DNA of 57,517 bases, counting the filler, from Dugesia japonica (Eukaryota), in assembly GCA_001938525.1 (NCBI GenBank). It is 5 parts of 5 records of this genome, joined end to end, with 100 filler letters (N's around TTAATTAATTAA, not from the genome) between each part and the next. Parts side by side here need not be neighbours in the genome. Positions count along the whole stretch, not along the records: positions 10,519 to 21,100 come from MQRL01518678.1; 4 more parts are not named here. One strand, written 5' to 3'. Made by a program: the position numbers and the translations under genes. Shown piece by piece: positions 2,349-50,062 of the stretch. Below the pieces are notes generated by a model. That model ran no database searches, had not been told where the DNA came from, and saw nothing but the letters and a program-made list of their open reading frames with translations. Numbering within the stretch: position 1 is the first letter of the stretch; the number at the start of each line of letters is the position of its first letter.

Positions 2349-3774
2349 GATACACTGACATTTCACATAAAGAATTTTCACATAAAAACTTTATACAAAA
2401 AATTTTTACAGAAAAATTTCACAAAAAGAATTTTCACATAAAAACTTATAATAATAAATTAGATCAAATGCATAAAAGAATAGAAGAACAAATCAGGCAT
2501 TATTAAGAATAAAAAAAATCAAATTATTATATGAGATAATAACATCAGCATGGTTAATGCTTAATTCGATCAAATAGGTTAAAGATTTATTAAATAAATA
2601 CCAGATAATATAATTACAAAATATACAAGTTAATTATTTAAACTTAAATGAAATAATTTACAGTATATCTTGATGAAAAATTGCATTAGCAAGTTAGTCA
2701 ATATTCCAATTTTATCTATTAAAATTAGTAGTTGTTTTAATTGAAACAGATTTGGCGCTAAATTTATAATTTATATGAAACCAAAATTATTTATATAAAC
2801 TTTATTTTTAGAGATTTTAAATGTTTACAGTTACAAAGACAACTAAGAATAACTTAATGCTTACAGATGTTGAGTTGGAATATTACTTAAACTCTAAAAC
2901 GTCAACTAGAATGTACTGGGTTTGCACGAAATTTGAAATATATAATAGTAGGCTAACAACGAATTTGGTTTCTGGCAGCGATTATATCATTGTCAGAAAG
3001 GTGACACAAAGGATAAAGCCTTGGAAAATCCTACTGCCCAGCCTTCTAATACAAAAAGAGCTACGTTCTATAAACGATTTGGATGTTTTGGCCGGTATAG
3101 CAGGGGAAAAAATCAATGCTTAAGACATTTAATAGGATACAGAATTTTTTAAGACTAATTATTCCTAATACTAGTTCATGTTGTATAATAAACTCGCCAT
3201 ATAATACTACATATAGTGGTACACCATTTCTTAGATATGATTCTGGAGTTGAAGATATTCAAAGTTTGATATTTATTCTGATGAAGGGCTTAAATATATC
3301 AGTAGAAGTACTTATTTATATACTGATGGTACATTTAATACAGTTCCAAGTATTTTTTCTATTTATATACAATACACGGAGGGCAGAGCTTTCCTTTTAT
3401 TTATGTTCTGTTTCTTCGTAAATCGAACCAATTATATAAAATAATTTATCAGCATATCATTAGGGCTGCACTTAGCAATCGGTTAATTTTTAATCCAGAA
3501 ACTATTATGACGGACTTTGAAATTGAACCCATAAGCGCAATATCAGAAGTTATTCTAAATCGTCGAGTTAAAGGATGTTTGTTTCATTTTAATCAATCTA
3601 TATGGAGAAAAGTACAAGAAAAAGGTCTTTCTCGGCTATATATAGGTATAGAAAGCATAGAGATAAAAGATTCCTTGTTAAATATCATAACAATATTATA
3701 ATATGTTTTTATGTCAAAAATATTTATGTGAAGAGTTTTTATGTAAAAATTTTTATGTGAAATGTCTGGGTGCC
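2349..3774 (+). mobile_element. Mutator-like (MULE) DNA transposon, internally deleted and decayed
   Basis: TIRs built from GACATTTCACATAAA / TTCACATAAAAA subrepeats at both ends; 8-9 bp TSD (C)ACATACAT at 2340/1-2348 and 3774/5-3782. Confidence 0.85.
2821..3701 (+). pseudogene. MULE transposase pseudogene (FLYWCH-like N-terminus plus MULE DDE domain)
   Basis: Motifs YWVC, YTDGTFNTVP, IMTDFE and GCLFHFNQSIWRKVQ spread over frameshifted fragments. Confidence 0.85.
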
Positions 3775-7324: not shown

Positions 7325-7510
7325 ATTTTTAATTTCAAATATATTTAGTATTATGAAATTAAAAAATCAATAAATTTATTGATTGTTTAATTTCATTACT
7401 ACAAATTGATTTGAAATTAAAAATTTAATTTCATATTACTATAATAATTATGGAAATATTAAATTAATCAATCAATAAATTTATTGATTGGTTAATTTCA
7501 TATTATCACA
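7325..7510. repeat. Tandem imperfect AT-rich palindromes (fold-back)
   Basis: About 100-bp palindrome centred on AATCAATAAA|TTTATTGATT (7365-7384); second centre at about 7470-7490. Confidence 0.7.
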
Positions 7511-8319
7511 ATATGAAATTATTTTAATATAAATTTTTAAAAATTAATCATTCTGAAACAAGAGGCCCCAACTATCTGTATAGAATCAAGAACAGAGATA
7601 ATTTCGCTAGAGTAAGCCAAGTAAGAACCAGTTACAAAGCAAAATAATAAAATATATCCAACGCCACAGCAATCGTTATTTCCACAAGGTAGCGTTCCTT
7701 ATTCAATATATAGCAGACTTAGCTGCTCGGCACAGTTTTTGGGTCATTAGTGAGAGGGATGCTACTGACGAGGAAGCGGCCTTCAACTTTAGCGAGAAAG
7801 CGCCGAATTACTCTTGAATAGTTGTTGAATTATGAAATAATGTTTTATCTGTACAATTCTTATTATGTAAATCGCTTTATAGGATTAGAAATTAGTGGGT
7901 ATATTCAATCCAAACTAAAGGAATACAGACAAGCCCTTAAAATACGAGTTGTGAGTCAACGATCCTATTCCAAAGATCTAGCCTAGGGAAGTGGCCTAGT
8001 GAAACCCAACGAATGATTTAATCTAGTGTCCTCGTTATAGAATGAAGCCCATAACTCGTAACCCGTAGTTCGAGTACATGCTCGCATTTCTTTGGTTAGG
8101 GTTCACAATTAAATATTACTCGCTTTTGTTCAACAGAAAATTTCGGCAATTACTATGGTGGGTTGCTGTATTAGTGATTGATTATAAGGACAGCCTTCTC
8201 GAATTTTCTTCCTGTAATTCTTTACAGCTTTCGTTACTCGAGACTTTATAATTCTGTCAACTTTGTGAGACTAATATTCAGGTTGACATATTGTATGATA
8301 TGTGTACTAGTTACTTTTT

Positions 8320-8920
8320 TGTAAATATCATCATTGTTAGTATTTAATTTTAAAAGGAATGCAAGATGTGTAGTCAATAGATAAATGCCTTGCTGTCAAA
8401 TTTCGTGCTAACTTATTCGATAAGTGATTTTGAAATAGGTTCTTAATTCTTTCAGATAATTATTTCCTGTAATAAATTGTCAATGAGATACTTGAATATT
8501 TTACAGATCAACATTCGCAAATTAAGGAGAGCTACACTTGAAAAGCTTTTACCTAAAAATACAAGGTTTTCAAACAGCTCGCAAAGTTGACAGTGGTAAT
8601 ATGCTTTTTATCTGCTGATCGGATCCATGAAACATTTAAAAAATTATCTACTTTTTATAATGGCAATTAAACCCAGTAGCAGAAAATTCAGAAGTTCTTT
8701 GCATATTTTGAACGAACATGGTTATCAAACATCTCGTTTATTAATTCAATGTTAATTTTTAATCAGTTAATAAAAAACTCACAATGAATTTTGCAGTGCA
8801 CCATGGGAACTCTTAGGTATTTGTGGAAAAGCTAAATTATTTAATTGATGACATAGCTTTGTAATCCATGAGAATTAATAACTTGACTACTTATCGGCAA
8901 CGCGATCCAACAACATTATT
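8320..8920 (+). pseudogene. Highly decayed MULE transposase C-terminal half
   Basis: Fragments ISDFEIG, LFP and AYFERTWL, typical of MULE transposases. Confidence 0.55.
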
Positions 8921-9769
8921 AAGTTTATCATAATTTTTGAAAAAATTATAACAAAGAAAATTTGCAGATTACTAACACTTGAAATGAATATAATTTACTA
9001 TTATGTATATGTTATTTGACTATCTAAATTATTTCATTTTTTTAAATATTTATTTCATAGTCGTAATTATTTCATATTTTTATATTTCATGGCTTTTGAT
9101 AGTAGCTGCCATGAGAATTTTATGAAAATCTTTTCATTGTTATTATTTTATGAAAATTAATTTGTTGTCGAAATTACTACAGAAAATTTTATCTAAAAAA
9201 TTAATCTCAAAATTATAATCAAAATTAACTATAACGTCAAATTATTTCAATATCGAAATTATTTCTTTATCAAAATTATTTATTATGGTAAAAAATGAAC
9301 ATGATTCATTTATTTTTGTTCTAAAGAATACCACGAAATACTAGTAAAATTTAATTTATTACATCTATACTCGTTATCAAATTAAAAAAAAATTTTACAT
9401 TTGGATAAATTTTTTTTTTTGTAATTTTTTTTAATTAAGTACAAACAGATGCTAAAATACGATTAAAAATTGTGTTTATTCATTTTTAATTGTGAGATTT
9501 TTTTATAATAATCGTTTATAATTAATCTAAAAAATATGGAGCAAAAAATAAAGTGATCTGTTCATAAATAATCGAGTCATTTTGATATTTTGAAAAGTTA
9601 ATTTTCTGAAATTTATCTAGCAATAAAAAAATTTTAAATTTCTAAATTTGTTTAATGAAAAAATTTTATTTTAAATTTACTAAATTCCATTAAATTTTTA
9701 TATTGACTTGAAAATAATATTAAAATTTGTTTAATTATTTCAAATCACATAACAACTTTTGTTATAATA

Positions 9770-10043
9770 ATGTCCTCAAATTATGATAAGTTAAAGCAAA
9801 CTTCTAGCAGTAATTCTATAACTTATGATAATGGAGCTACTTACAAAACTATTTTTGAATTATCAAAATTGTTAAATACAGGTTATATATTTTTTATTAA
9901 CTGTCAAATTATTGTGATTTTTAGGCCTTGATGGCGAAGAATTAAGAATATGTCTAAAATTATTAGAAAATGGTATACATCCACAAGCATTGGCAACTAT
10001 TATAAAAAATTTAAAAAGTGCTAAAAGTAAAGAAAATATTTAA
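9770..10043 (+). CDS. MZT1: Mitotic-spindle organizing protein 1 (MOZART1, gamma-tubulin complex); exons 9770-9881 and 9925-10043, 76 aa
   Basis: Spliced translation MSSNYDKLKQTSSSNSITYDNGATYKTIFELSKLLNTGLDGEELRICLKLLENGIHPQALATIIKNLKSAKSKENI matches the MOZART1 signature (EIS.LLNTGLD...L.IC..L.E.GI.P.AL..II); 43-nt GT-AG intron at 9882-9924 keeps the frame. Confidence 0.92.
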
Positions 10044-10418
10044 ATTAGTTGTAAATTAATAAAATTATTTGATTTTACATTTTTTATTTCAAATTTCTAA
10101 TTACATATAAGTTAAACCAATTAATTTAGAAAATGCTAAATTATATTTAAAAGTAGTTAACAATAAATTATGTTAATTAAATAAAATTCTTTCATTAGTT
10201 TTATTCAAGAATTTGTTTCATAAATAACTAATTTTTTATTCTAAATGATTTCATTTGTGAAAATAAATTAAATCCTTTTATTTAAAATAAAACTGGGTAA
10301 ATTTTTAAATAATTTCTTTCAATATCGAATATAATTTTTTATTCGATAATTCAACAAAGGTTCTTTAATATCGAAGATTACGATTTTTGAGGTTGTTTTT
10401 TATACCGAACCATAACTC

Positions 10419-10518
10419 NNNNNNNNNNNNNNNNNNNNNNNNNNNNNNNNNNNNNNNNNNNNTTAATTAATTAANNNNNNNNNNNNNNNNNNNNNNNNNN
10501 NNNNNNNNNNNNNNNNNN
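10419..10518. other. Artificial contig linker
   Basis: 44N + TTAATTAATTAA (stops in all six frames) + 44N. Confidence 0.97.
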
Positions 10519-11302
10519 TGTGTTCTAGCCCAACAAATTACTGGGGGCCCTCAAAAAATTCCGCCCCGGAATTTCTCTCAAAAATTCCTTTTAGTACCAT
10601 TTCCTCTGGAATCTAACAACGTTATTTATCATAGCTCGGCTTTTAATATGATGGAGGCTCTGTCAAATTTCAACAGGTCAAAAGCTCCCTGAAGCAAGAG
10701 TCTAATAGGTCATAAAATTAAGTAAAGTAAAGAAAACAAGATGCAGAAACAAAATACATTATTTCNNNNNNNNNNNNNNNNNNNNNNNNNNNNNNNNNNN
10801 NNNNNNNNNNNNNNNGCAAGAGTCTAATAGGTCATAAAATTAAGTAAAGTAAAGAAAACAAGATGCAGAAACAAAATACATTATTTCATTAGAATATCAA
10901 TACACATGCATAATTTACCATCATACTCATAATTACATAAACAAACCGTCTACCACATTATTGATCAAATACTAGCCACTCAACATTTTAAGTTCGCCGA
11001 TCACATTTATTGTCACCATAANATAGAATCACTATATAACTTTTTAGCTTACTTACTCTTTTGTCAACGGAACCGACTTTGAGATAACTTTAGCATTTGA
11101 GATGAATAGCCGAATTTGGAGACAACTTGGCAGTATAGAGCTGCACGACAAATGGAGATTACCAAATGGACAGTAGAGAACTGCCAGAGCACACTTGGAT
11201 AAATATAATTTGTTCAATTACACAATTATAGAGTTTTGTCACAGGAATCGTGATAGTATTTACATAGTCACTCGCAGCATAGAACTGCTCGAAACGAAAA
11301 TT

Positions 11303-12235
11303 CTATCGGCCCCAGAACAGATCCTCCTCGGACACTGAGAAAGGCCATTGAGATGATTGATCGGGATCGGGGAGAATAGTGGGAGATTGAGAATCGGTTT
11401 TTTGAGCTGCATACTGGTCGAGCAAGCTGATCCGCTGGGCGACTGATCGCCTATTTGTTTTATAGCTGTAGAATGTCTGTTCCACCTTAGTGAGATTTAT
11501 CTGTCGTGGTGGAATTACGACTCGGACTAGGGTTTCTTTGAGCGGGATATTCTCGTCATGTAACTGTTTTACGGTCTCCTCTAAATGTCGAATATTAAAC
11601 TCGCTCTCTTCTGTTTCGTTTTTCCAGCACTGACTTTCTTCGGTGAGGCTCGCAGTTTTAGTTTGAAGGTATTTAATAATATTTTCGAGGTTTTGAATAT
11701 CACTCTGATATTGTTCACGCTCTAATCTCATGGACTGGATTTCTCGCACTAATCTTTCATTATCTCTATGTAGATGATTCAACTTCTCTTGTTGATTCTG
11801 TTGATTGGACNNNNNNNNNNNNNNNNNNNNNNNAATTGTCTTTTCCAACATTTTAATTTTTTTGGCTTGCCACTTTACTTGAGTCTCTAACTCTTGAATT
11901 TGTTGCTGAGCTCTTTTCCAATTGTCTGCCAATTCTCGTTGTTGGCGTGAAATTATTTCATCTTTGCTCCCATCTGACCTTCTCCGATAATTTACTGGTT
12001 TAACGACATTCTCGTTGTACTCTCTCTGCTTCTGCTTCGGATTGTTGTCTTGCCTTGACTCGCACTCTTAGTCAACTGCTCGAGCTTGGGGTTAGAGTTT
12101 CTCTCGGATCTCACCCGATTTTGTTGATTAGTTGTTGTTCACTAACGACTCATTACAAGTTTGGTTATTATTTCGACAGTATCGTTTGATTGCTCCTCTC
12201 TGTCGAGCCATGCTGTTTGAACTTCGGGATGCCAT
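11303..12235 (-). pseudogene. Coiled-coil accessory ORF (track ORF 11303-11932; probable original ATG at 12235, disrupted)
   Basis: Long Q/E/K/L heptad-rich region; the open frame extends upstream of the track TTG start to about 12068; AAAATGG start context at 12235. Confidence 0.55.
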
Positions 12236-12734
12236 TTTCTTAATTGAAATACAGATAAACATGGTATTGAATATTTACACATTAAGACATCGGGAGTAAT
12301 GATGACAACAAATTTACTGGTTAATCAAATTTTAAATGAGATTGATATTTACAAATTGTTTTAATAGTGTTTCATTGGTTACTTCTACTGTACTGTATCC
12401 TGAATTTTTATGTTTATTTACAATTTACCAAGTATCACACTCACAGATACACTACATGCCACTCCTCATTGGGCCATTTACACACTAAATTTGACTTCTC
12501 CGTCAGTATCATCTCCACAACACAACTCCGCAATTTTCGAAAATACTCAGACACTGTATATACAAATTGGAATTATTCTGATTACGCACTTATTAAATAA
12601 CTATAATTTGTGAGTCTACTTATACGATACTTTTACTGTTTTTTATTTTTGGAATATAAGTTTTTTTTTACATAGTAATACAGTTACTATTTAATACATA
12701 TAATCTTCCGTAATCTACAACTCGGCATCCATCA

Positions 12735-13250
12735 TCATACATTACTCTCTTCTCCATACCACATCCTCTCACTAGTCTCGATAGTGTTCAGGATTGTGGA
12801 TACGCTCGGTATTCGGTTAATTTGGGATAAGATAAGCTCTGTATTATAAGTCTGTAACTCCTCTACTTGGTGTATCAGATCCTCTACGACTTCATTAGTT
12901 CCACTCAGGGTTTGCAGGTAAAAGTTCTGATTCTCGGTAATCTGTCGTCTCTGGTTCTCCACTAATTTATTCAAAAGGTGTATCTGCATCACATAAAAAT
13001 TTTGATTCTCCACAAGGGTTACGTTTAATTGTCGTGTCTGTTGTAACTGTTCGTTTAATGCATCAGAATTCCTCATTACACTCCGGCAGTGTTCGTCACA
13101 TAAATTCTCCATTGCAAAATACGGATTTAAAGGTTGATTAAGTAGTTGAGTATAAGTTTGCACCGGTTCCTCCATAATTGCTCTGTCGACATCGTCTAAA
13201 TCCACATTTACTGTTAACAGTCCATTCATTGTTATCTGTTTCTGTTCCAT
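12735..13250 (-). CDS. 171-aa Q/N/E-rich coiled-coil accessory protein, unknown function
   Basis: Intact ATG-to-stop ORF with AAAATGG context; internal repeat ENQNFY x2; heptad pattern. Confidence 0.65.
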   Translation of the reverse strand: MEQKQITMNGLLTVNVDLDDVDRAIMEEPVQTYTQLLNQPLNPYFAMENLCDEHCRSVMRNSDALNEQLQQTRQLNVTLVENQNFYVMQIHLLNKLVENQRRQITENQNFYLQTLSGTNEVVEDLIHQVEELQTYNTELILSQINRIPSVSTILNTIETSERMWYGEESNV

Positions 13251-13578
13251 TTTACTAAATAAATACTATGATAAAAATACTACAGTGATCCATTCTAAAT
13301 CAAGTTTACAAATTGCTCCATATTTTAATTTTAATTTATTCAGCTATGCTCTACTTTACATTTCGAGCTACTCAAAAAACTAAATTGTGTACCTTACTGT
13401 ACCTTACATTTCAGGTAATTTATTTACAACTTTGCTCTCACTATTCTCCTCAATAACTCCGTAACGACTCAGTTCCTCCCTCCGGAACTCCCAACCGCAC
13501 CAACTCTCTTGGTGGGTATAAATATTTCGCCGTCAACTCTCTTAACTCTGGTTCCAATCGCAGTCTCGGATACTGCCC

Positions 13579-15143
13579 TCATTTTGCTTTACAGATTAAT
13601 ATTGTTATAATCGTCATCATGATAATCGTACTGACGCCCGCTACTCCACCACTGAGTCTTGCTGACCAATTCCTTTCATTTTCCAGTTTGCTTTGCAACG
13701 TTGATGCCTCATGCCTCAACTTAGCTTTTACTGGAAATGTCCGTCGTGAACCAGTCCTTACCAACTCTTTCATTAATTTTTTAAAAAAATCCTCTTGCTG
13801 ATTATTTAAAATATTTGATGGCTGCCTCATAGATTTACTTTCAGTTGTCGTTTTCACATACCTCGTCATTGCATGGTTTCTCTTTTTGCTTCGTACACTG
13901 GTTTCTCTCGTGCTTATCTTCATGATAGTTGTTGTCGCCGTTGTGGTCGTTTTCGGATACACCATCGTCGTCAACTTCTCTGTTGTTACCCGGACCGTTG
14001 TCGTCCTCAAGTATGTTTTCGCTTTTGTTCTCTCTTTTGTCGTCGGTTTGACGGGTAGTGCCTTGTTGCCCTGGGGTGCCTCGTCTACTAATACATATTC
14101 TAATTCTAACCACTCCCCATTTTTCCGATTAAGTTTCATTATCATTTCGTGTTGATTACGCTTCCATCTATACTCTGGTAACACTCCGTCTTGCGCTCAA
14201 TATTTAAAGATTGATATTGCTTAATCCGAAACAACAATTTCTTTCTACGCGACACTTGAAACGTATTTTCTGCATCTTGGGGTGTCCTTTGATTCTCTTT
14301 ATCTACTATACTCATTTTCATATCGATCATAGGCCACTCTNNNNNNNNNNNNNNNNNNNNNNNNNNNNNNNNNNNNNNNNNNNNNNNNNNTCTTGGGGTG
14401 TCCTTTGATTCTCTTTATCTACTATACTCATTTTCATATCGATCATAGGCCACTCTCCTCTTCAAAAGGCAGAAGGCTGTCCGCTTACACCTGATGGAAA
14501 CTGGTTCCATTGAATACTTGTTACTGCGACTCGTTTCAACCCTTTCCTTGAGATTGTCTGCACTTGCGTTTTATAGTAAGTCATATAGATTCGATGCTCC
14601 GTATGAATATCCTCGTAATCATTACACTCTTCTCCACTTATCACTTTGAACACCATTAGCAGTAATACCGCATCCATCCACTTGTCCGATTGACTTGTTA
14701 ACGGACTCACATTCCTCGGAATCTCGGTGTCTGGCTGCACTTCACGCTGTAATTTCGCTTGATTATTCACGTTTATTACTAAGATTACGATTGTCACTGC
14801 AAATGCTAATGCNNNNNNNNNNNNNNNNNNNNNNNNNNNNNNNNNNNNNNNNNNNNNNNNNNCGATTATCGTTAGTCGTCTGGTTCACTACAATGGTTGG
14901 TCCTGCTGGCCAATCTCGTTCCATCCCTATCACTTCGTATGTGATCAACGCCATTAGCACATATATCCATTTATTCATTAGCTTGTTTTGTCTATTTGCT
15001 CCACTGGACGCCGTGGCCTACTCGTTGAAATCATACAATTTTGTCACTTGTACTGTTGTTGGCCATGCTACCGCTGTTAGCGTTACTAACCAAAAAATAA
15101 TTATTGATACGGGTATCAATGCTAAGCAAGTCCATATTGTCTT
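13579..15143 (-). pseudogene. Multi-hydrophobic, Thr-rich, C-terminally anchored membrane module (env-like), end of the giant frame
   Basis: Hydrophobic segments IWTCLALIPVSIIIFWLVTLTAVAW, WIYVLMALITYEVIG, ALAFAVTIVILVINV and WMDAVLLLMVFKVISG; Thr-rich stalk; terminal GVAGVSTIIMMTIITILIC. Confidence 0.6.
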
Positions 15144-17400
15144 TCAAAAATTTCTCAGAACAGATGGCTTTGTTTCCTCTCTTGGGTCTCCCAATTCTAT
15201 TTCATAAATATGATCTTGTGATTCTGATTTTGTCATTGCGTATACATAATTTCCTTCTGACGTGTTATTCCCATTCGTGGGTGGTTCTGGTAACGGAGCT
15301 TCTCGACTCGGTCCTTTAATCGTTGCAAGATCCATCATAAAGTTACTTTCTTGTTCTATTATTTGTTGATTTTTTCCAACCTTTCTTTCCTCTTGTTTTT
15401 CTTGAGTTGCTCTAATCTCCTTCATTACCTCAGGTGTGAACGGCATCTCAAACGGGACATTGCCCTTGAGGTCCATCATTCCAATTATTACTATCTCGTC
15501 CTCGACTTTGTCATTATCTTTTGTGTCGCCCTCCAGAGTCCCACAAAAGTTTAACATTTCCGCTTCCTTCAGCGTTTTAGTTTTCGTTTGTGGTTTCGGG
15601 GTTCCATGACATTTTTGCAATCGTTTGCCCCTTCTCCTTTACTCGAATCCTGTTCTCGTTTTTGTTTTGCTCTACGCTGCAGTGCTTGTAGGTGCAATTT
15701 TTGCATCGCTTTACTCTCTTCTACCAACAATGGATGTGGATAAACATAGGCTATTCTCTGGTACTCGATTACTATATCTTCACTCCATCTTAATCTCTCA
15801 TCACACTCTTGTTCGGCAAGTGATTTTCCTCCATTTTTAGATATTCCTCTATCTCTTTGTAGAGCGCACCATATTCTCTTTTATACTCTTGCTCATGATA
15901 CTTCTGAAGTTCTTGATCTGTCGGCCATTTCTCCATCCTATCCCCATCCTGTATCGTGGGGAATTTTTCTCCTGGACGTTCTGTACACCATTTGCGTTTT
16001 TCCCTTGATAATATGCTTGCATTTCTAACTTTTTCTCTTTAGGTATGTCCGTTCCACGACTCAATACTGTTTCTACGGTTAATAATATGGCAGTTTTTAT
16101 TTCCTCATTTTCTTCCTTTCTTTGTCGCTCCTCTTCTGACGTTGGCCGCTTTCCAGACCTCTTTTTATCGTTATACCCTGATACTTCAAGCTTTCCTTCC
16201 TCTTTATGTTTCTGGGCCCATTTTTCATAACATCTTTCACCGTACGCTTCAATCTTTTCTAGCGCGGCTCTTGGCACCTCCACCTTGTCTTTACAATACG
16301 CTCTCAGCATGGCTATCGTCTCGGCATTAAATATTTCATCTTCCTCAGCCCCGGCCCTCTGGCTATTTTCTGCTTAATACTGCTTTCTTTGTGTCAAAAA
16401 CTCCTGCCATACATCACCCTTTAGTTTTGTGATTTTTGGCGTATCGCTCTCGTCTGCTTGCGGTGGTCGTCCACTAAATTCACAATAGTCCATCATTCCT
16501 CTTTTTATTACTTCCTCTAGTGAATCGTAACCATTTTCACCGTTATCATTATCTGAATAAGAATCCATTATTTCCATAGTCGTACTTTGAACTTGCCGTC
16601 TTTTATTTTTATTCTTTCTGTTCCTCTTTCTCCGATTTCCAATTTTTTCCGATGTGCTAAGCAGAGTTTTCAGTTCGCTGTTGTTTTCCTGTTGTAATTT
16701 TAGTTTCTGAGACAGACATGAACGAGTTTCTATCATTTGGGCTTTCTTTTTCGTTAATTTCTCCATCGTTTTTTGTTGCCTCTCTGCTTTTTGTTGAATC
16801 TCTTGTTTATCTTTCTCTAATTTCACTACCACTTGTTCGAAAGCTTGTTCAGAGACCCTGAAGTGGAACAATTAAAAAACGCGGTACAGTGGGTACAAGC
16901 TTTCGAACAAGTGCTGGCCCGTCATTTTCTTTAATAAATTGTAGCATCTCGGTCATCCTATTGGCTTGTTCCGCTTTATATTCCGCATCATTTAGTTTTC
17001 CTTCATATTTTTCTTGACGCTTGCTGTGGGCTTCCTACATAGTTTTCAACTTTTGTTTATTCTCCTCGGAGATAGTTAATTGTGAGTTTTGTCTCTTTAA
17101 ATCGTAGTATGTACTGTTGCTCTCTCGCATCTCTTTCATTATTTGTTTTTTGTCAATTAATTCTTTGTGAATTCTCCGTATTCGCTCATTGAACAACAAC
17201 TCAGGCCAATCACTCCCCCTGTTTGAAAAATCGACGTCCTCGTCGATGCCCTGCATTTGACAATTAGTCTTACTCCACCTTTCCTTCGGTGTTATTGATG
17301 TCAACAATTCTCCTTTAACTGGTATGGCTTGGCCTAGCTTTAACCCTTTCCTGGCCTCGTGTAACACAATAATTGCCTCTTGCAATTGACCGCGCATATC
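15144..17400 (-). pseudogene. Coiled-coil / basic / acidic middle region of the giant frame
   Basis: Track ORFs 17035-17475, 16374-16871 and 15849-16310 join through single stops and a repairable micro-inversion; the link to 15144-15620 needs frameshifts; NLS-like RRKRNRKNKNKRR. Confidence 0.6.
16830..16913. repeat. 19-bp perfect inverted repeat flanking an inverted 46-bp coding segment
   Basis: CACTTGTTCGAAAGCTTGT (16830-16848) and its reverse complement (16895-16913). Confidence 0.9.
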
Positions 17401-19020
17401 GATTGCGCATTCCCAACACAATTCTTTGTATACCGTTTCTAGTACTGGCAACTCCACCTGGACTTTTACGTTCACACAACTGACACAACCTGCACTGTCT
17501 CAAACTCCTGTATCCAGTAACCATTGACCTCTGCGTTCGACTTGTAATAACGACCGTTTAATACTACGCTTCGTCCTTCGGTAACACTTTTTACATAACT
17601 TCATGATATCTACCGCAGTGATAGAGCATCGAGTAGGCTTCCATGCTCTACATTCATCGCACACTGTCGGTTCGATCTCATCATTTTCCTTTGATGTCGA
17701 CTGATCCTTGTAGATCCAATACTCCTCATTCTTTGTAGTAACTATCTAAACACCGGTCAGACATGGTTGGCATAACGGTGTCCATCCACTCTGGGGAATT
17801 AGTCCTTTCATGTTATATCGTCCGCATCTTGGATTGTCACATTTTCGATTCACTTTCTTCCAGTCGTCCGTCACTGAAGAATAATATTGATTAAGCATGT
17901 CTCGTCAATTTTCATAAATATTTGATTGGTCAGTTAATTTGAATTTTTGTAAGATTTCGTCATGAGTTAATTCTTTATCCCGTCTAATAGAATTGACTGC
18001 TGTTAAACCTCTCATATGTACATGTAAGCACTCCAGTTCATTGTCAATAATTCCTTTAGCCTTGCACAGGCAATTATTACACCATTGCTTATATAAATCC
18101 TCGTCTTATTTCAGTTTGAACGCTATTTCATTACATTGTTCACAGGTGGAACCATGGGATTCCTTTCTGTCTTCTCGTAATGATTCTCGTTGGACACTTT
18201 TCTCCATCAACATTAAGTTATCATAGATCGATTGTAAGCAGTGAAAACATGCTTGGCTCATAAGCACTTTATTCAATGGCACTTTATTCGAAGATCTCGT
18301 ACAGTGACATATTTTACATGGCAAGACTAGATTCTCCTGATTGCATATACTCGGATTGTTGTCTACCGCTTTAATAGTTTTCTCAGCTTTAATACTCCTG
18401 CTTAAGATTAACTGATCTTGCTTTTTGCTGGTAACTATTTGCATCACTAACAGACACGGCTCACATATCTGCTTTTCCAGATTACGCCTGCAACATCCTT
18501 GCTCGTTGGAATGCCCACATTGTGGATTATTACATTTTCGACTCCCTTGAGTCACTCCTTCCTTTATAAGCGAGTAATATTGTCTCAATATAACACCGTC
18601 ATTCTCACAGATATCTGAATTATTAACTACCTCATTTTGTTGTACAATCTCATTTGGCGCTGGTTCTATATTCCGTCGTACAGGATTTGCAGCTTTCAAC
18701 CATTTTAAGTGTTTATGTATACACCTAATCTCTGTTGTAGCAATTCTTTGTGCGAAGCTCAAACAACTTCGGCACCACTGTTGGTATTCACTTGTTACAC
18801 TTGGTAATTTAATCGATGTCCGACCACATAATTCGCATGATAATTTGTTCATAATAAACTTCCCTCTCCCCTGCTGGGTAGATTCCCGAATCAAATTCTC
18901 CACTAACTCTGCTACATCATCACACATAACCCGCAAACAATGATAACATGATTTTCCCATTAGTTCTTTGCTTAATGGCACCGAATCCGGTTTTGTTGCC
19001 TCACAGAATATACACCACTT
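17400..19020 (-). pseudogene. Tandemly repeated Cys-rich (CxxC...CxxC) region fused after the integrase
   Basis: Two about 232-aa units plus a partial third, read in frame through stops at about 18106, 17905, 17746 and 17500. Confidence 0.75.
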
Positions 19021-19279
19021 TTCTTGTTTAACACTTTTATTTTCTTGAACTTCACCCTTAGTACTTTTGGTTTTACTGGTCTTCGTATTCATCATCATTA
19101 TTTGTTGTCTGGATCTAATCAGGTATCGATCCTCTTCATCAATGAATCTAGTTTTGAAACTAACTCTTTTTGTCTTTTTAATTTTGTGTTTAACCTCCTC
19201 GTCTTTGTCCTCCATTTTTTGCTTAACTGAGACTCGTCTCACTCTTTCCACAGTCTCCTCATCGCTTTCTTTATCATTG

Positions 19280-21100
19280 TCGTCTTCGGTTGCTGCTAGT
19301 TTACATCTTGATACGTGAACGATACTTGGCGTTTTAAGTGGTTTTCCCACTTCCTTTACTTTTAGATTCGTTGCAGTTGTCTCTAACACTAAATATGGTA
19401 CTTTGTTTGGTCGTTTTAATTTATCCGTGGTTCCAATTTCGATTGTTGGTGTATTAATTAATATCATGTCACTCTTTTTAAACGAATGGGGCTTTGTATC
19501 TCGATCATATAATTCCTTGTAACTCTCCTGGTTAAACTTCGCATTTAACGCTGCCAATCTCCATATTTCTTGCATTCTCTCTTTCATGCCGGTAACGTAA
19601 TCATCCTCGTCCATATATTGCGATATTGGCCACTGATGCTCTAAATCTATTGGCATATTACATTCTCGACCGTACATTAGTTTAAAAGGTGAAGCTTTGG
19701 TCGCGGGATGTTCTTCCATCTGATAGGCAAATAAACATAAATTCAAATGTTTGTCCCAATCTCTCTGCAATTTCGTTGCATAACTCGATAACATTCTAGT
19801 CAATGTCTGATTGAATCGCTCTGTCATTCCATCCGTTTGTGGATGATACTCTGATGTCCGTACTTTATGAATATTAAAATAACTAGTCACTTCTTTCATT
19901 AATTCACTCATGAAATTATTTCCTTGATCTGTCAATATTTTTTCGCTGGGCCGTATCGACTGAATAATTTATCTACTAATACTCGTGCGATTGTCGACGC
20001 TTTTTGATCCTTTATTGCAAATGCCTCGGGAAACTTTGATAAATGGTCCACTACTGTCAAGATATACGCTTTTCCACTGTCCGTTGGTGGGAATGGTCCC
20101 ATGATGTCCATTGCAATTATATCCATTGGTGCCGCTGGCACGGGTATTGATTGTAACGGCACTTTGAATTTCTTTCCCGTTCCTTTTCTTGCCGCACAAA
20201 TCTCGCATTTACTAATCCATTCATTTACACAAGTTGTAATATGAGGCCAGTAATATTTTGCTCGTAATTTTGATTCGGTTTTCTTTGCTGACATATGACC
20301 TCCTAGAATTCCATTATGATACTGCTCCAGTATTTTCGCTCGTCTACATTTTGGTATTACTAATAACCGTTGATCACCTTCCATCATCATTAACCATTCG
20401 TTCACCACAGTCTATCTACCACCTTGTTTCTTTAAATGTGCCTTCATCGCTTTGTTACACTCCACTTTGCTCAAATCAAAGTGAAATATGTACTCTAGAA
20501 TTAATCTTACTTCCTCGTCTTCGTCTTGATCCCTTTTCAATCCGGTAAAATCTTTATTCTCCGCCAATATCATACATAAGGATCGTATGTCTTGATTCAT
20601 CAATTGCTGTAAGTCTATCCATTCGCTTCTGGTTGCTTTATTTTCTACCACCTCCTCCGGTTCGTCTGTAAATTTTGCTCTTGACATATAATCTGCATTT
20701 GAATTTGCTTTTCCTCTTTTGTATTTGACCAGCGGTGCATATTCTTGTAGCTTCATCGCCCATCTGGCTATTCTATTTGCTTGTAAAGGTTTTTGTCCGA
20801 TCATTGTTATTGGCTGATGATCGGTGTAAATTACTTAAGTATGTCCAAATATTAACTGATTAAAATGTTTTACAGCCTTTACTATTGCCAGGATTTCTCG
20901 TTCAGTGGTGCTATAATTCTTTTCAGATCTTTGAAATGTTTTACTAAAATATCCGATCACCCTTTCTCGTCCTTCTTCGTCTAATTGACTCAATACGGCA
21001 CTCATTGCATAACCCCTTGCATTCGTTGCGAGTATAAATGGTTTCCTAAAATCTGGTTGTACCAGTATCGGTGCCGTCATTAACTTTTCTCGAATTGTTT
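19280..21100 (-). pseudogene. pol: Ty3/Gypsy pol: RNase H plus integrase (two in-frame stops, one frameshift in an A-run at about 19940)
   Basis: PDFRKPFILAT, NYSTTEREILAIV, YTDHQP, NADYMSR; YHNG..GGH...CEIC (HHCC); IAMDIMGP / TDQG / DGMTERFNQTL (DDE); KLKRPNKVPY and VHVSRCK. Confidence 0.95.
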
Positions 21101-21200
21101 NNNNNNNNNNNNNNNNNNNNNNNNNNNNNNNNNNNNNNNNNNNNTTAATTAATTAANNNNNNNNNNNNNNNNNNNNNNNNNNNNNNNNNNNNNNNNNNNN
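21101..21200. other. Artificial contig linker
   Basis: 44N + TTAATTAATTAA + 44N. Confidence 0.97.
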
Positions 21201-49028: not shown

Positions 49029-49128
49029 NNNNNNNNNNNNNNNNNNNNNNNNNNNNNNNNNNNNNNNNNNNNTTAATTAATTAANNNNNNNNNNNNNNNN
49101 NNNNNNNNNNNNNNNNNNNNNNNNNNNN
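49029..49128. other. Artificial contig linker
   Basis: 44N + TTAATTAATTAA + 44N. Confidence 0.97.
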
Positions 49129-49690
49129 TATTCTCATTATAACATCTTCTACTTTATCATCAGGTATTCATGTTCCATCATCATTCTCATCAAAATTGCC
49201 TTGTTTTTCTTGAATATCTACTGTATTTAACATCTTTGTTTTTAATTTCTTACTTTTGGGATCATCATGTGGCATTAGACATTGTGCACATGTACCGCAT
49301 TTACTCCTTGACAACATATCCGCATTTGTATGAAGNNNNNNNNNNNNNTATTCCAATTTTATATCTAAACTCCTCAAATAATTAATCCAGGTTTGAAACT
49401 GTGATGTAATGGCTTCTTGGTATATAGCATAAATGTGATGGCTTTATGGTCTGTTCTGAGGATAAATATCTTCGCATATAAGTAAAGTCTGGAATTAATA
49501 CAAAAGTAATAAATTGCGAGCAGTTCTTTCTGTGTAGTACAATATCTTTTCTCATGACTCGTCATTGCGTGTGACCCATATGCAATTACTCTTTATTGCC
49601 CATTGTTGTCCTTTTGAGATAGTACTGCCTCAATCGTATCAAAACTTGAATCCGTGTTCCAAATAAATCCTCTATTTATATTGGTGGTGG
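49129..49690 (-). pseudogene. Gypsy RNase H remnant, same lineage as 22545-22964
   Basis: MTSHEKRYCTTQKELLAIYYFC, FILRTDHKAITFM, NADMLSR. Confidence 0.88.
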
Positions 49691-50062
49691 ACATAATACA
49701 AGCAGATATTCAAGATGGATTGAATGATTTTCCAATTGCAGTGAAAAATTAAAATGCTCTAGTAGTAGAATGAAAATATTAATACTAACTCATTACCCAA
49801 AAGATAATTATGTCATACATTAAAGGTTACTGCAAATATGCTTTTAGCTGGGTGAACATGTGAAAAAGATACAGAGAAGTATTAAATTTAGCCAGGCATC
49901 GAATTTTAAAAGTTCCACAAAATTAATATTGATCATTTACACCAACAATAATGTAGAACATATAATTATTAATTTTTGGTAAATTTATTTAAAAGTAAAA
50001 TGTTATTAAGGCACCCTTAATTATATTCATAATATTATTTCTTAAAGAGTAGGCTTTAGAAG

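What the first reader, a model, noticed from the sequence alone, without database searches (positions are those of the whole stretch)
13579..15143. Non-canonical env-like membrane module at the end of the retroelement frame
Seen: four hydrophobic segments at about 15140-15063, 14978-14925, 14812-14770 and 14680-14633. Two of them share a signal-peptide-like pattern (NKWIYVLMALITYEVIG / DKWMDAVLLLMVFKVISG), each following a TM segment. Then come a roughly 170-aa non-repetitive stretch, a Thr-rich mucin-like stalk (TTTVRVTTEKLTT..TTTTATTT) and a terminal TM with a 3-aa basic tail. N-glycosylation sequons NQT, NVS and NWS are present. Known: env sits at this position in errantiviruses, but those ectodomains are Cys-rich fusion proteins and this one is Cys-poor. 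Inference: signalase-processed surface proteins, possibly a new route to cell-to-cell transfer or host-cell manipulation.
Basis: partly seen in the sequence, partly recalled or inferred. Interest (0 to 1): 0.75.

Follow-up and report, generated by a model that had tools for sequence, protein, structure and literature searches.

The report
Second surface protein in env-carrying retroelement
A decayed jumping gene in an animal genome ends in a membrane-anchored protein that is probably not its fusion machine but a second, variable surface protein; its relatives carry the real fusion protein elsewhere and put adhesion-type domains in this slot, hinting at a two-part entry system.

Summary
The membrane module is real and belongs to a high-copy Ty3/gypsy family, but this copy is decayed: five stops, a frame change and two assembly gaps lie in it. 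The '3-aa tail' is probably a premature stop; the sequons are at chance level. It is probably not the element's env. The RNase H-integrase piece groups with 17 polyproteins; 15 of 17 carry a Monjiviricetes-type fusion glycoprotein upstream of RT, the GAG-ENV-POL layout described for Burro and flatworm/nematode errantiviruses. Sixteen of 17 also have a signal-like segment after integrase, and 14 a clear terminal TM with tail: a second type I membrane protein. Its ectodomain varies: FN3-like in 11 (one unit modelled at pLDDT 90.5, Foldseek hits FN3), Ig in 2, small Cys-rich in 2. The window's version has the same slot and layout and weak tail similarity, but an unrelated ectodomain and an extra hydrophobic pair. 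Best reading: accessory surface (attachment/adhesion) protein beside a separate fusogen. The family's own upstream env is unseen because the contig ends. I found no description of this second protein in the papers searched.

The parts
20001..21098 (-). RNase H, integrase zinc finger and start of integrase core; cut at the 5' side by a contig-join spacer (N run, 12 letters, N run at 21101-21200), so gag, any upstream env, protease and RT are not in view
   Evidence: Pfam RT_RNaseH 1.8e-35, Integrase_H2C2 1.1e-17; two stops; N runs
19279..19968 (-). Rest of integrase core and C-terminal part, after a frame change
   Evidence: 45-50% identity to 17 GAG-ENV-POL-type polyproteins, 34-38% to the others examined
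17400..19020 (-). Cys-rich extension with 14 CxxC motifs and an internal duplication of about 230 aa; putative zinc-binding, cytosolic
   Evidence: motifs; 34% over 226 aa, E 3e-43; no Pfam hit; single-sequence model uninformative, pLDDT 38
15147..17400 (-). Coiled-coil-like and charged region in several broken frames, ending in a Pro/Tyr-rich stretch just before segment 1; no hydrophobic segment in the pieces scanned
15063..15140 (-). Hydrophobic segment 1 (26 aa with a central Pro); internal signal or hairpin, orientation unresolved
   Evidence: KD19 2.5; net charge +2 before, 0 after
14925..14978 (-). Segment 2, short signal-like (K-W start, small residues at -3/-1), weakly hydrophobic
   Evidence: KD13 2.03; charge +3 before, -1 after; cleavage rule recalled, not run
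14770..14812 (-). Segment 3, visible half of a TM; its start lies in the N gap 14813-14862
   Evidence: KD13 3.17; 17 contigs of other copies run on into the gap (table 7), with further hydrophobic codons as read by eye
14633..14686 (-). Segment 4, internal signal-like segment leading the main ectodomain; counterpart of the post-integrase signal in relatives
   Evidence: KD13 2.3; charge 0 before, -4 after; 16 of 17 relatives have such a segment
14056..14632 (-). Ectodomain of about 155-160 aa, 1 Cys, one R-x-K-R site, no fusion-peptide-like segment; broken by two stops, a frame change and an assembly duplicate with gap
   Evidence: no match to Pfam, to relatives' ectodomains or to their FN3 profile
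13807..14055 (-). Basic, Thr-rich stalk
   Evidence: 24 T and 19 K/R in 83 aa; 19 S+T in the best 40 residues against 8-18 in 16 relatives
13591..13647 (-). Terminal TM, followed by basic residues (type I anchor)
   Evidence: KD19 2.29; charge +3 after
13450..13590 (-). Probable cytoplasmic tail: 3 codons, a stop, then 42 open codons with K-Y-x-x-P-P and L-Y-P-x-x-x-L
   Evidence: contig pieces about 84% alike span 13404-13714 in both DNA runs (table 8)
12735..13265 (-). Downstream intact 176-codon ORF of the same repeat family, no assigned family
   Evidence: depth like the module; Pfam below cut-offs, Atlas best 0.77

Best explanation
The module is the decayed, divergent form of a second, accessory type I membrane protein encoded at the 3' end of the polyprotein frame of a GAG-ENV-POL-type Ty3/gypsy element (Burro/flatworm-errantivirus-like). 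Inferred mechanism: the long frame is threaded through the ER more than once; an internal signal after integrase (segment 4 here) is cut by signal peptidase, a roughly 160-aa globular domain is lifted on an O-glycosylatable Thr-rich stalk, the terminal TM stops transfer, and a roughly 46-aa tail with Tyr/Pro motifs steers trafficking or budding. Segments 1-3 would release one more small membrane peptide in front of it. Fusion is done by a separate class III glycoprotein upstream of protease. The most likely job of the post-integrase protein is attachment or adhesion (particle to target cell, or producer cell to neighbour), because relatives fill this slot with FN3 or Ig domains. Shown: position, hydrophobic pattern, family-level presence, pol kinship, relatives' layout and FN3/Ig domains. 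Inferred: topology, cleavage, this family's own upstream env, homology of the window's module to the relatives' unit, and function.
For: Pol: best hits are PF24664-carrying polyproteins; tree places the window in an 18-row group with 15 env carriers and two 5'-incomplete proteins. Env-like region upstream of RT in 15 of 17 (Pfam 1.5e-83 to 1.8e-105 in all ten env carriers scanned). Post-integrase signal-like segment in 16 of 17, clear terminal TM with tail in 14 of 17; none in the six outside proteins examined the same way. FN3-like unit in 11 of 17; one unit modelled at pLDDT 90.5 as seven strands, 14 PDB matches at E up to 0.001 and the listed hits are FN3 domains or FN3-containing proteins; 7 of 7 held-out units scored 19.7-34.8 against a best 14.35 in 124 control tiles. 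Ig in P0162 (above cut-off) and P0163 (below). Tail: PP 13-26 residues after the TM in 9 of 14 relatives, 26 in the window; profile score reached by 1 of 1000 shuffles; [KR][YF]x(1-2)PP in 4 of 14 tails and the window against 1 in 43,500 background residues. Depth over the module of the same order as over pol in two DNA runs; other copies differ at the stop codons at 14464-14462 and 14199-14197 in at least 99% of depth.
Against: No upstream env is seen for this family: the contig piece ends at 21100 and no env-like match exists in the window. The window's branch is long (1.17) and the 18-row group has only 90/77 support; the smallest starred group (21 rows) also holds a plant element. The window's ectodomain matches neither the FN3 profile (probability 0.3%) nor any relative's post-integrase region (best E 0.14-0.9), so homology rests on position, layout and a short tail motif. 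That motif was defined by eye after seeing both sides; 4 of 245 real tiles of the element score as high, and a TM-plus-tail profile did not place this region among its top 10 matches. Whether other copies lack the stops at 15146-15144, 15020-15018 and 13581-13579 was not among the rows shown. Five hydrophobic segments give odd parity, so one must be a hairpin or not span the membrane. RNA reads are few and mostly from diverged copies (306 and 45 laid). No functional data.
Confidence: 0.6

Rival explanations
1. Same accessory type I protein, but it acts on the host cell rather than in attachment: a receptor decoy, interference factor against related elements, or a signalling/trafficking modulator, in line with the BCL2-like, ubiquitin-like and ankyrin cargo of these elements.
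For: Relatives' FN3 unit resembles host receptor domains; ubiquitin-like and ankyrin domains in P0009, P0150, P0156; Burro cargo described in PMC6431247; Tyr motifs in most tails, though at background rate.
Against: Co-encoding in the Gag frame and a long stalk fit display on particles equally well; no test here separates the two roles.
Confidence: 0.2
2. The module is this family's own, new kind of fusogen that replaced the upstream env.
For: No env seen in the window; long branch; an R-x-K-R site in the ectodomain; two extra hydrophobic segments and a huge Cys-rich extension not seen in the relatives' post-integrase regions.
Against: About 160 aa and 1 Cys against roughly 600-aa env regions in relatives; no hydrophobic segment after the R-x-K-R site; no Pfam fusogen match; the 5' half is missing only because the contig ends.
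Confidence: 0.08
3. Segments 1-3 release a small FAST/sORF2-like cell-cell fusogen.
For: A short luminal piece followed by a TM is small enough for a FAST ectodomain (10-50 aa in 10.1101/2025.03.14.642691).
Against: No MGxxxS/T; 1 and 2 K/R in the 15 residues after segments 1 and 3, below the paper's threshold of 3; only the terminal TM has 4, and its ectodomain is about 330 aa. Not a separate small ORF.
Confidence: 0.05
4. Separate host gene, independent insertion, or chance hydrophobic patches in decayed DNA.
For: No sequence homologue of the module among 1.84 billion representatives (only a tandem-repeat translation), in IMG/VR or in 58 integrase loci.
Against: GC 0.41 and strand skew like pol, against GC 0.18 in the flank; high, continuous depth across pol and module in two DNA runs; 0 of 1000 shuffles give as many hydrophobic segments; same slot filled in 16 of 17 relatives.
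Confidence: 0.05

Closest known systems
Burro / GYPSM1 giant gypsy elements of planarians (PMC6431247, section on planarian elements read whole)
   Same: One huge polyprotein with many accessory domains; mononegavirus-like env in frame between gag and pol; ubiquitin-like, BCL2-like and ankyrin parts as in P0009 (Pfam; BCL2 likeness by eye). High copy number.
   Different: That section names no membrane protein after integrase. The window's 5' half is missing, so Burro's hallmark domains and size could not be checked.
GAG-ENV-POL errantiviruses with HSV/gB-type env of Nematoda, Bryozoa and Platyhelminthes (PMC13524379; abstract, passages and supplement rows seen)
   Same: Gene order and env class of the window's nearest pol relatives; the listed flatworm env fragments resemble those of P0009 and P0010 by eye.
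   Different: Main text has 0 occurrences of 'fibronectin', 'immunoglobulin' or 'accessory'. The post-integrase surface protein is not among the passages seen; figures and the GitHub data were not seen.
Drosophila-type errantivirus env (GAG-POL-ENV)
   Same: Position 3' of integrase; signal, ectodomain, TM, tail.
   Different: Their env is a large structured F- or gB-type fusogen with conserved cysteine bridges; this ectodomain has about 160 aa and 1 Cys.
MDG1-group sORF2 and reovirus FAST proteins (10.1101/2025.03.14.642691, passages seen)
   Same: Accessory membrane protein of a gypsy element, possible role in cell-to-cell passage.
   Different: Those are 60-210-aa single-TM proteins with myristoylation motif, 10-50-aa ectodomain and polybasic patch; not met here.
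Two-component viral entry systems (paramyxovirus/pneumovirus attachment protein plus F; herpesvirus receptor binders plus gB) (recalled, no call)
   Same: Works-like analogy: conserved fusogen plus a separate, fast-changing stalked surface protein.
   Different: No sequence or fold relation tested or implied; here both would come from one polyprotein.

Membership tests
Ty3/gypsy LTR retroelement | RNase H followed by H2C2 and core integrase | tested here: met
Ty3/gypsy LTR retroelement | RT, protease, gag and paired LTRs | not testable with these tools
   contig piece ends at 21100; no genome held
GAG-ENV-POL errantivirus / Burro-like group | pol groups with elements of this layout | tested here: met
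   18-row group 90/77, smallest starred group 21 rows 100/92; top identities; moderate support only
GAG-ENV-POL errantivirus / Burro-like group | class III env between gag and protease | not testable with these tools
   that part is outside the contig piece; no env match in window
Burro in the strict sense | over 30 kb, BIR/MATH/BCL2/ankyrin cargo | not testable with these tools
   none of these Pfam families in the visible half; 5' half missing
Errantivirus env (F-type or gB-type fusogen) | large ectodomain with conserved cysteine bridges | tested here: not met
   about 160 aa, 1 Cys; no Pfam match
Errantivirus env (F-type or gB-type fusogen) | furin site followed by hydrophobic fusion peptide (F type) | tested here: not met
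   R-x-K-R present, no hydrophobic window behind it
Errantivirus env (F-type or gB-type fusogen) | fusogen fold | not tested
   the window's ectodomain is in pieces and was not modelled
FAST / sORF2 | MGxxxS/T motif, 10-50-aa ectodomain, 3 or more K/R in 15 residues after the TM, small own ORF | tested here: not met
Post-integrase type I protein of the relatives (defined here) | internal signal, ectodomain, terminal TM, tail, at the end of the polyprotein | tested here: met
Post-integrase type I protein of the relatives (defined here) | FN3 or Ig ectodomain | tested here: not met
   P0158, P0159 and P0160 lack it too
Post-integrase type I protein of the relatives (defined here) | basic then Tyr/Phe-Pro-Pro tail motif | tested here: inconclusive
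   present behind a stop; 1 of 1000 shuffles but 4 of 245 real tiles score as high

The most novel reading that the evidence does not exclude
GAG-ENV-POL retroelements of invertebrates have a two-component entry apparatus cut from one polyprotein: a conserved class III fusogen before the enzymes and, after integrase, a swappable attachment protein built from captured FN3, Ig or novel domains that sets which cells the particle binds. The window's family carries a new ectodomain, an added small membrane peptide and a tail with an ALIX-type late-domain motif (motif meaning recalled) that couples it to budding.
Probability: 0.3. Interest if true: 0.82.

Novelty: new variant of a known kind. Interest (0 to 1): 0.58.

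Why it matters
How env-carrying retrotransposons outside Drosophila choose and reach target cells is open (PMC13524379 says the mechanism of transmission remains elusive for most elements). A second surface protein kept in the same slot in 16 of 17 relatives while its ectodomain is exchanged (FN3, Ig, Cys-rich, unknown) is a concrete candidate for the cell-targeting part and can be tested by knockdown and localisation in the host. It also warns that a TM protein after integrase need not be env. The copy in this window is dead; the interest lies in the family and the group.

Tried and rejected
No whole genome is held, so other copies could not be read as loci. Search of 1.84 billion representatives with the stop-free 116-aa piece 14812-14465: one hit, P0149, E 2.6e-5, a translation of tandem-repeat DNA; rejected. 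IMG/VR scans with integrase and with the stalk-TM ORF: no relative; a scan with the FN3 alignment could not run. JGI metagenome scan: 58 integrase loci, none matching the seven non-integrase pieces at E 0.01. ESM Atlas: stalk-TM ORF best 0.78, with podoplanin and herpes gN at 0.76, below the reliable range and explained by mucin-plus-TM make-up; downstream ORF best 0.77; the ectodomain itself has no Atlas result. Pairwise BLAST of module pieces with P0009: TM and tail align in register but E 8.3. TM-plus-tail profile: top hits were microsatellite translations. My error: the first ectodomain piece was read in the wrong frame and gave a weak FN3 score (18.8, probability 4%, E 0.01, four stops in it); in the right frame the score is 11.8; the off-frame match is the best of 186 tiles of the element, which chance allows at E 0.01; rejected. 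The profile included four wrongly picked units and matches its own members by construction; the held-out test used the cleaner alignment. Single-sequence model of a Cys-rich repeat: pLDDT 38, not used. No RNA holder listed. The gypsy element at about 22500-25400 is a separate one with its own RNase H (31% identity), not the missing 5' half. Grohme et al. 2018 is not held. Earlier scan findings: nothing in three look-ups. An earlier count gave the first stop as 15144-15142; it is 15146-15144.

Full report
Setting. The finding lies on the minus strand of a GC-richer island (about 0.38-0.41 against 0.18-0.30 around it) in an AT-rich, repeat-filled animal-type sequence. The island sits on a contig piece 10519-21100 bounded by join spacers. 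Pfam gives RNase H and integrase zinc finger at its 5' end; gag, protease and RT are cut off. After integrase come a Cys-rich region with 14 CxxC motifs and a 230-aa internal duplication, a charged region, the membrane module, and two further ORFs. The host was not determined; a planarian is my guess from the nearest described elements, not a test.

The observation. Segments 2 and 4 are short and have signal-like charge asymmetry. The Thr-rich stalk is real and strongly basic. But this copy is broken by stops at 15146-15144, 15020-15018, 14464-14462, 14199-14197 and 13581-13579, a frame change near 14200 and two 50-N gaps, one flanked by an exact 66-nt duplicate. The ectodomain is about 158 residues with 1 Cys. 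The three sequons are at chance level (3.8 expected). The frame stays open for 42 codons after the stop behind the terminal TM (chance 0.04), so the short tail is probably damage.

Family context. Of 24 listed runs four were laid. In two DNA runs 14,010 and 8,283 contigs lie on the stretch; summed depth over the module bins is 18,000-53,000 and 7,500-20,000, against 27,000-50,000 and 14,000-20,000 over pol, with single contigs at 4-32. This is no copy number, but shows a large family in which module and pol go together. At the stop codons 14464-14462 and 14199-14197, at least 99% of the depth reads otherwise, and part of the depth shows a length difference near the frame change; 1,191 rows were not shown, so the other three stops are untested. 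Pieces about 84% alike span the TM and the tail beyond the stop in both runs. Two RNA runs gave 306 and 45 reads from about a quarter of each run, mostly diverged or partial and on both strands: no sign that this copy is expressed.

Relatives. Three protein searches gave a set of long polyproteins from unnamed metagenome assemblies. A tree of 48 RNase H-integrase pieces (49 relatives chosen by me from these hits, two dropped as short, plus the window) puts the window, on a long branch, in an 18-row group (90/77). Fifteen of its 17 relatives have a Monjiviricetes-type fusion glycoprotein upstream of RT; the other two are 5'-incomplete. This is the layout described for Burro (PMC6431247) and for GAG-ENV-POL errantiviruses of nematodes, bryozoans and flatworms (PMC13524379). 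So in this lineage env is not behind integrase.

What is behind integrase. Sixteen of the 17 have a signal-like hydrophobic segment after integrase, 14 a clear terminal TM followed by a 28-122-residue tail; P0162 has a borderline window at its very end, P0163 none, P0152 neither; six outside proteins examined alike lack the pair. Ectodomains are 106-395 residues with 0-12 Cys. Eleven share a repeat unit; one unit, folded with an 11-row alignment, gives a confident seven-strand sandwich (pLDDT 90.5) whose PDB matches are FN3 domains (sequence-profile hits to neogenin, DCC and PTPRF are weak, best E 0.009; viral-library matches are mostly FN3-type phage and giant-virus proteins). P0162 and P0163 carry Ig domains, P0158 and P0159 a small Cys-rich domain, P0160 a Cys-free unassigned one. 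The slot is kept while the ectodomain is exchanged.

Does the window's module belong to this unit? By position and layout yes: signal, globular part, Thr-rich stalk (19 S+T in 40, relatives 8-18), TM, basic residues, then a Tyr-Pro-Pro motif 26 residues on (13-26 in 9 of 14 relatives). By sequence of the ectodomain no. The tail evidence is modest: motif chosen by eye, 1 of 1000 shuffles but 4 of 245 real tiles as good, and a wider profile missed it. The window's tail and that of P0009 both hold L-Y-P-x-x-x-L, and two relatives hold PPxY; reading these as late-domain motifs is recalled knowledge. The window differs from the relatives in the three extra hydrophobic segments and the long Cys-rich extension.

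Mechanism. With a cytosolic start, five segments cannot all span the membrane and leave the stalk outside. Either segment 1 is a signal, segment 2 is carried through and segment 3 anchors a 70-residue peptide, or segment 1 is a hairpin, segment 2 the signal and segment 3 anchors a peptide of about 20 residues. Both put NQT outside, NVS inside, and make segment 4 the signal of the main protein. I take the main product to be an attachment or adhesion protein working beside a separate class III fusogen (0.6); a decoy or host-modulating role of the same protein is the main rival (0.2); a replacement fusogen (0.08), FAST-like peptide (0.05; criteria not met) or foreign insertion (0.05) fit poorly.

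Novelty. The element type is known. A second, FN3/Ig-bearing surface protein after integrase was not found in print in my searches (term counts; section). The library lacks most subscription papers, including the original Burro and nematode ERV papers; figures, Repbase entries and the GitHub data of PMC13524379 were not seen and may annotate it. Verdict: new variant of a known kind, interest 0.58.

Noticed in passing
window 19020-17400 (minus): Post-integrase Cys-rich extension with 14 CxxC motifs in pairs and a 230-aa internal duplication (34% identity); no Pfam match and no match in the relatives' polyproteins; looks like tandem zinc fingers spaced by helices.
   Followed up: partly
window 13265-12735 (minus): Intact 176-codon ORF downstream of the module, at family-level depth, covered by diverged contig pieces and by the highest RNA bin of run X18; no family assigned. 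Three of its tiles outscore the window's tail on the tail profile.
   Followed up: partly
window 12067-11303 (minus): 254-codon coiled-coil-like ORF at lower laid depth than the element body; may be an optional accessory ORF or another repeat.
   Followed up: partly
P0009 residues about 770-1190 and 2120-2330: Ubiquitin-like, BCL2-like (by eye) and ankyrin domains in one polyprotein with env, as described for Burro.
   Followed up: partly
P0030 residues 48-231 and 1456-1780: Two FN3-type membrane units in one frame, one before protease and one after integrase, suggesting the unit can duplicate and move.
   Followed up: partly
P0010, P0151-P0157, P0159, just after integrase: An extra protease-like domain sits between integrase and the internal signal in nine relatives (mutual BLAST matches; several protease stretches in Pfam for four of them); it might release the membrane protein.
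   Followed up: no
window 22500-25400 (minus) and 49400-49700 (minus): Separate decayed gypsy elements with their own RNase H; RT Pfam hit at 23312-23692.
   Followed up: partly
window 2821-3698 (plus): Decayed MULE transposase with FLYWCH-like start.
   Followed up: no
window 10694-10887 and 14275-14456: Exact duplicates on both sides of 50-N gaps, and N-run/12-letter/N-run join spacers at 10419-10518, 21101-21200, 34157-34256, 49029-49128: assembly artefacts that can mimic repeats and frameshifts.
   Followed up: yes
window 45819-45151 (minus): 222-codon open frame with no Pfam match.
   Followed up: no
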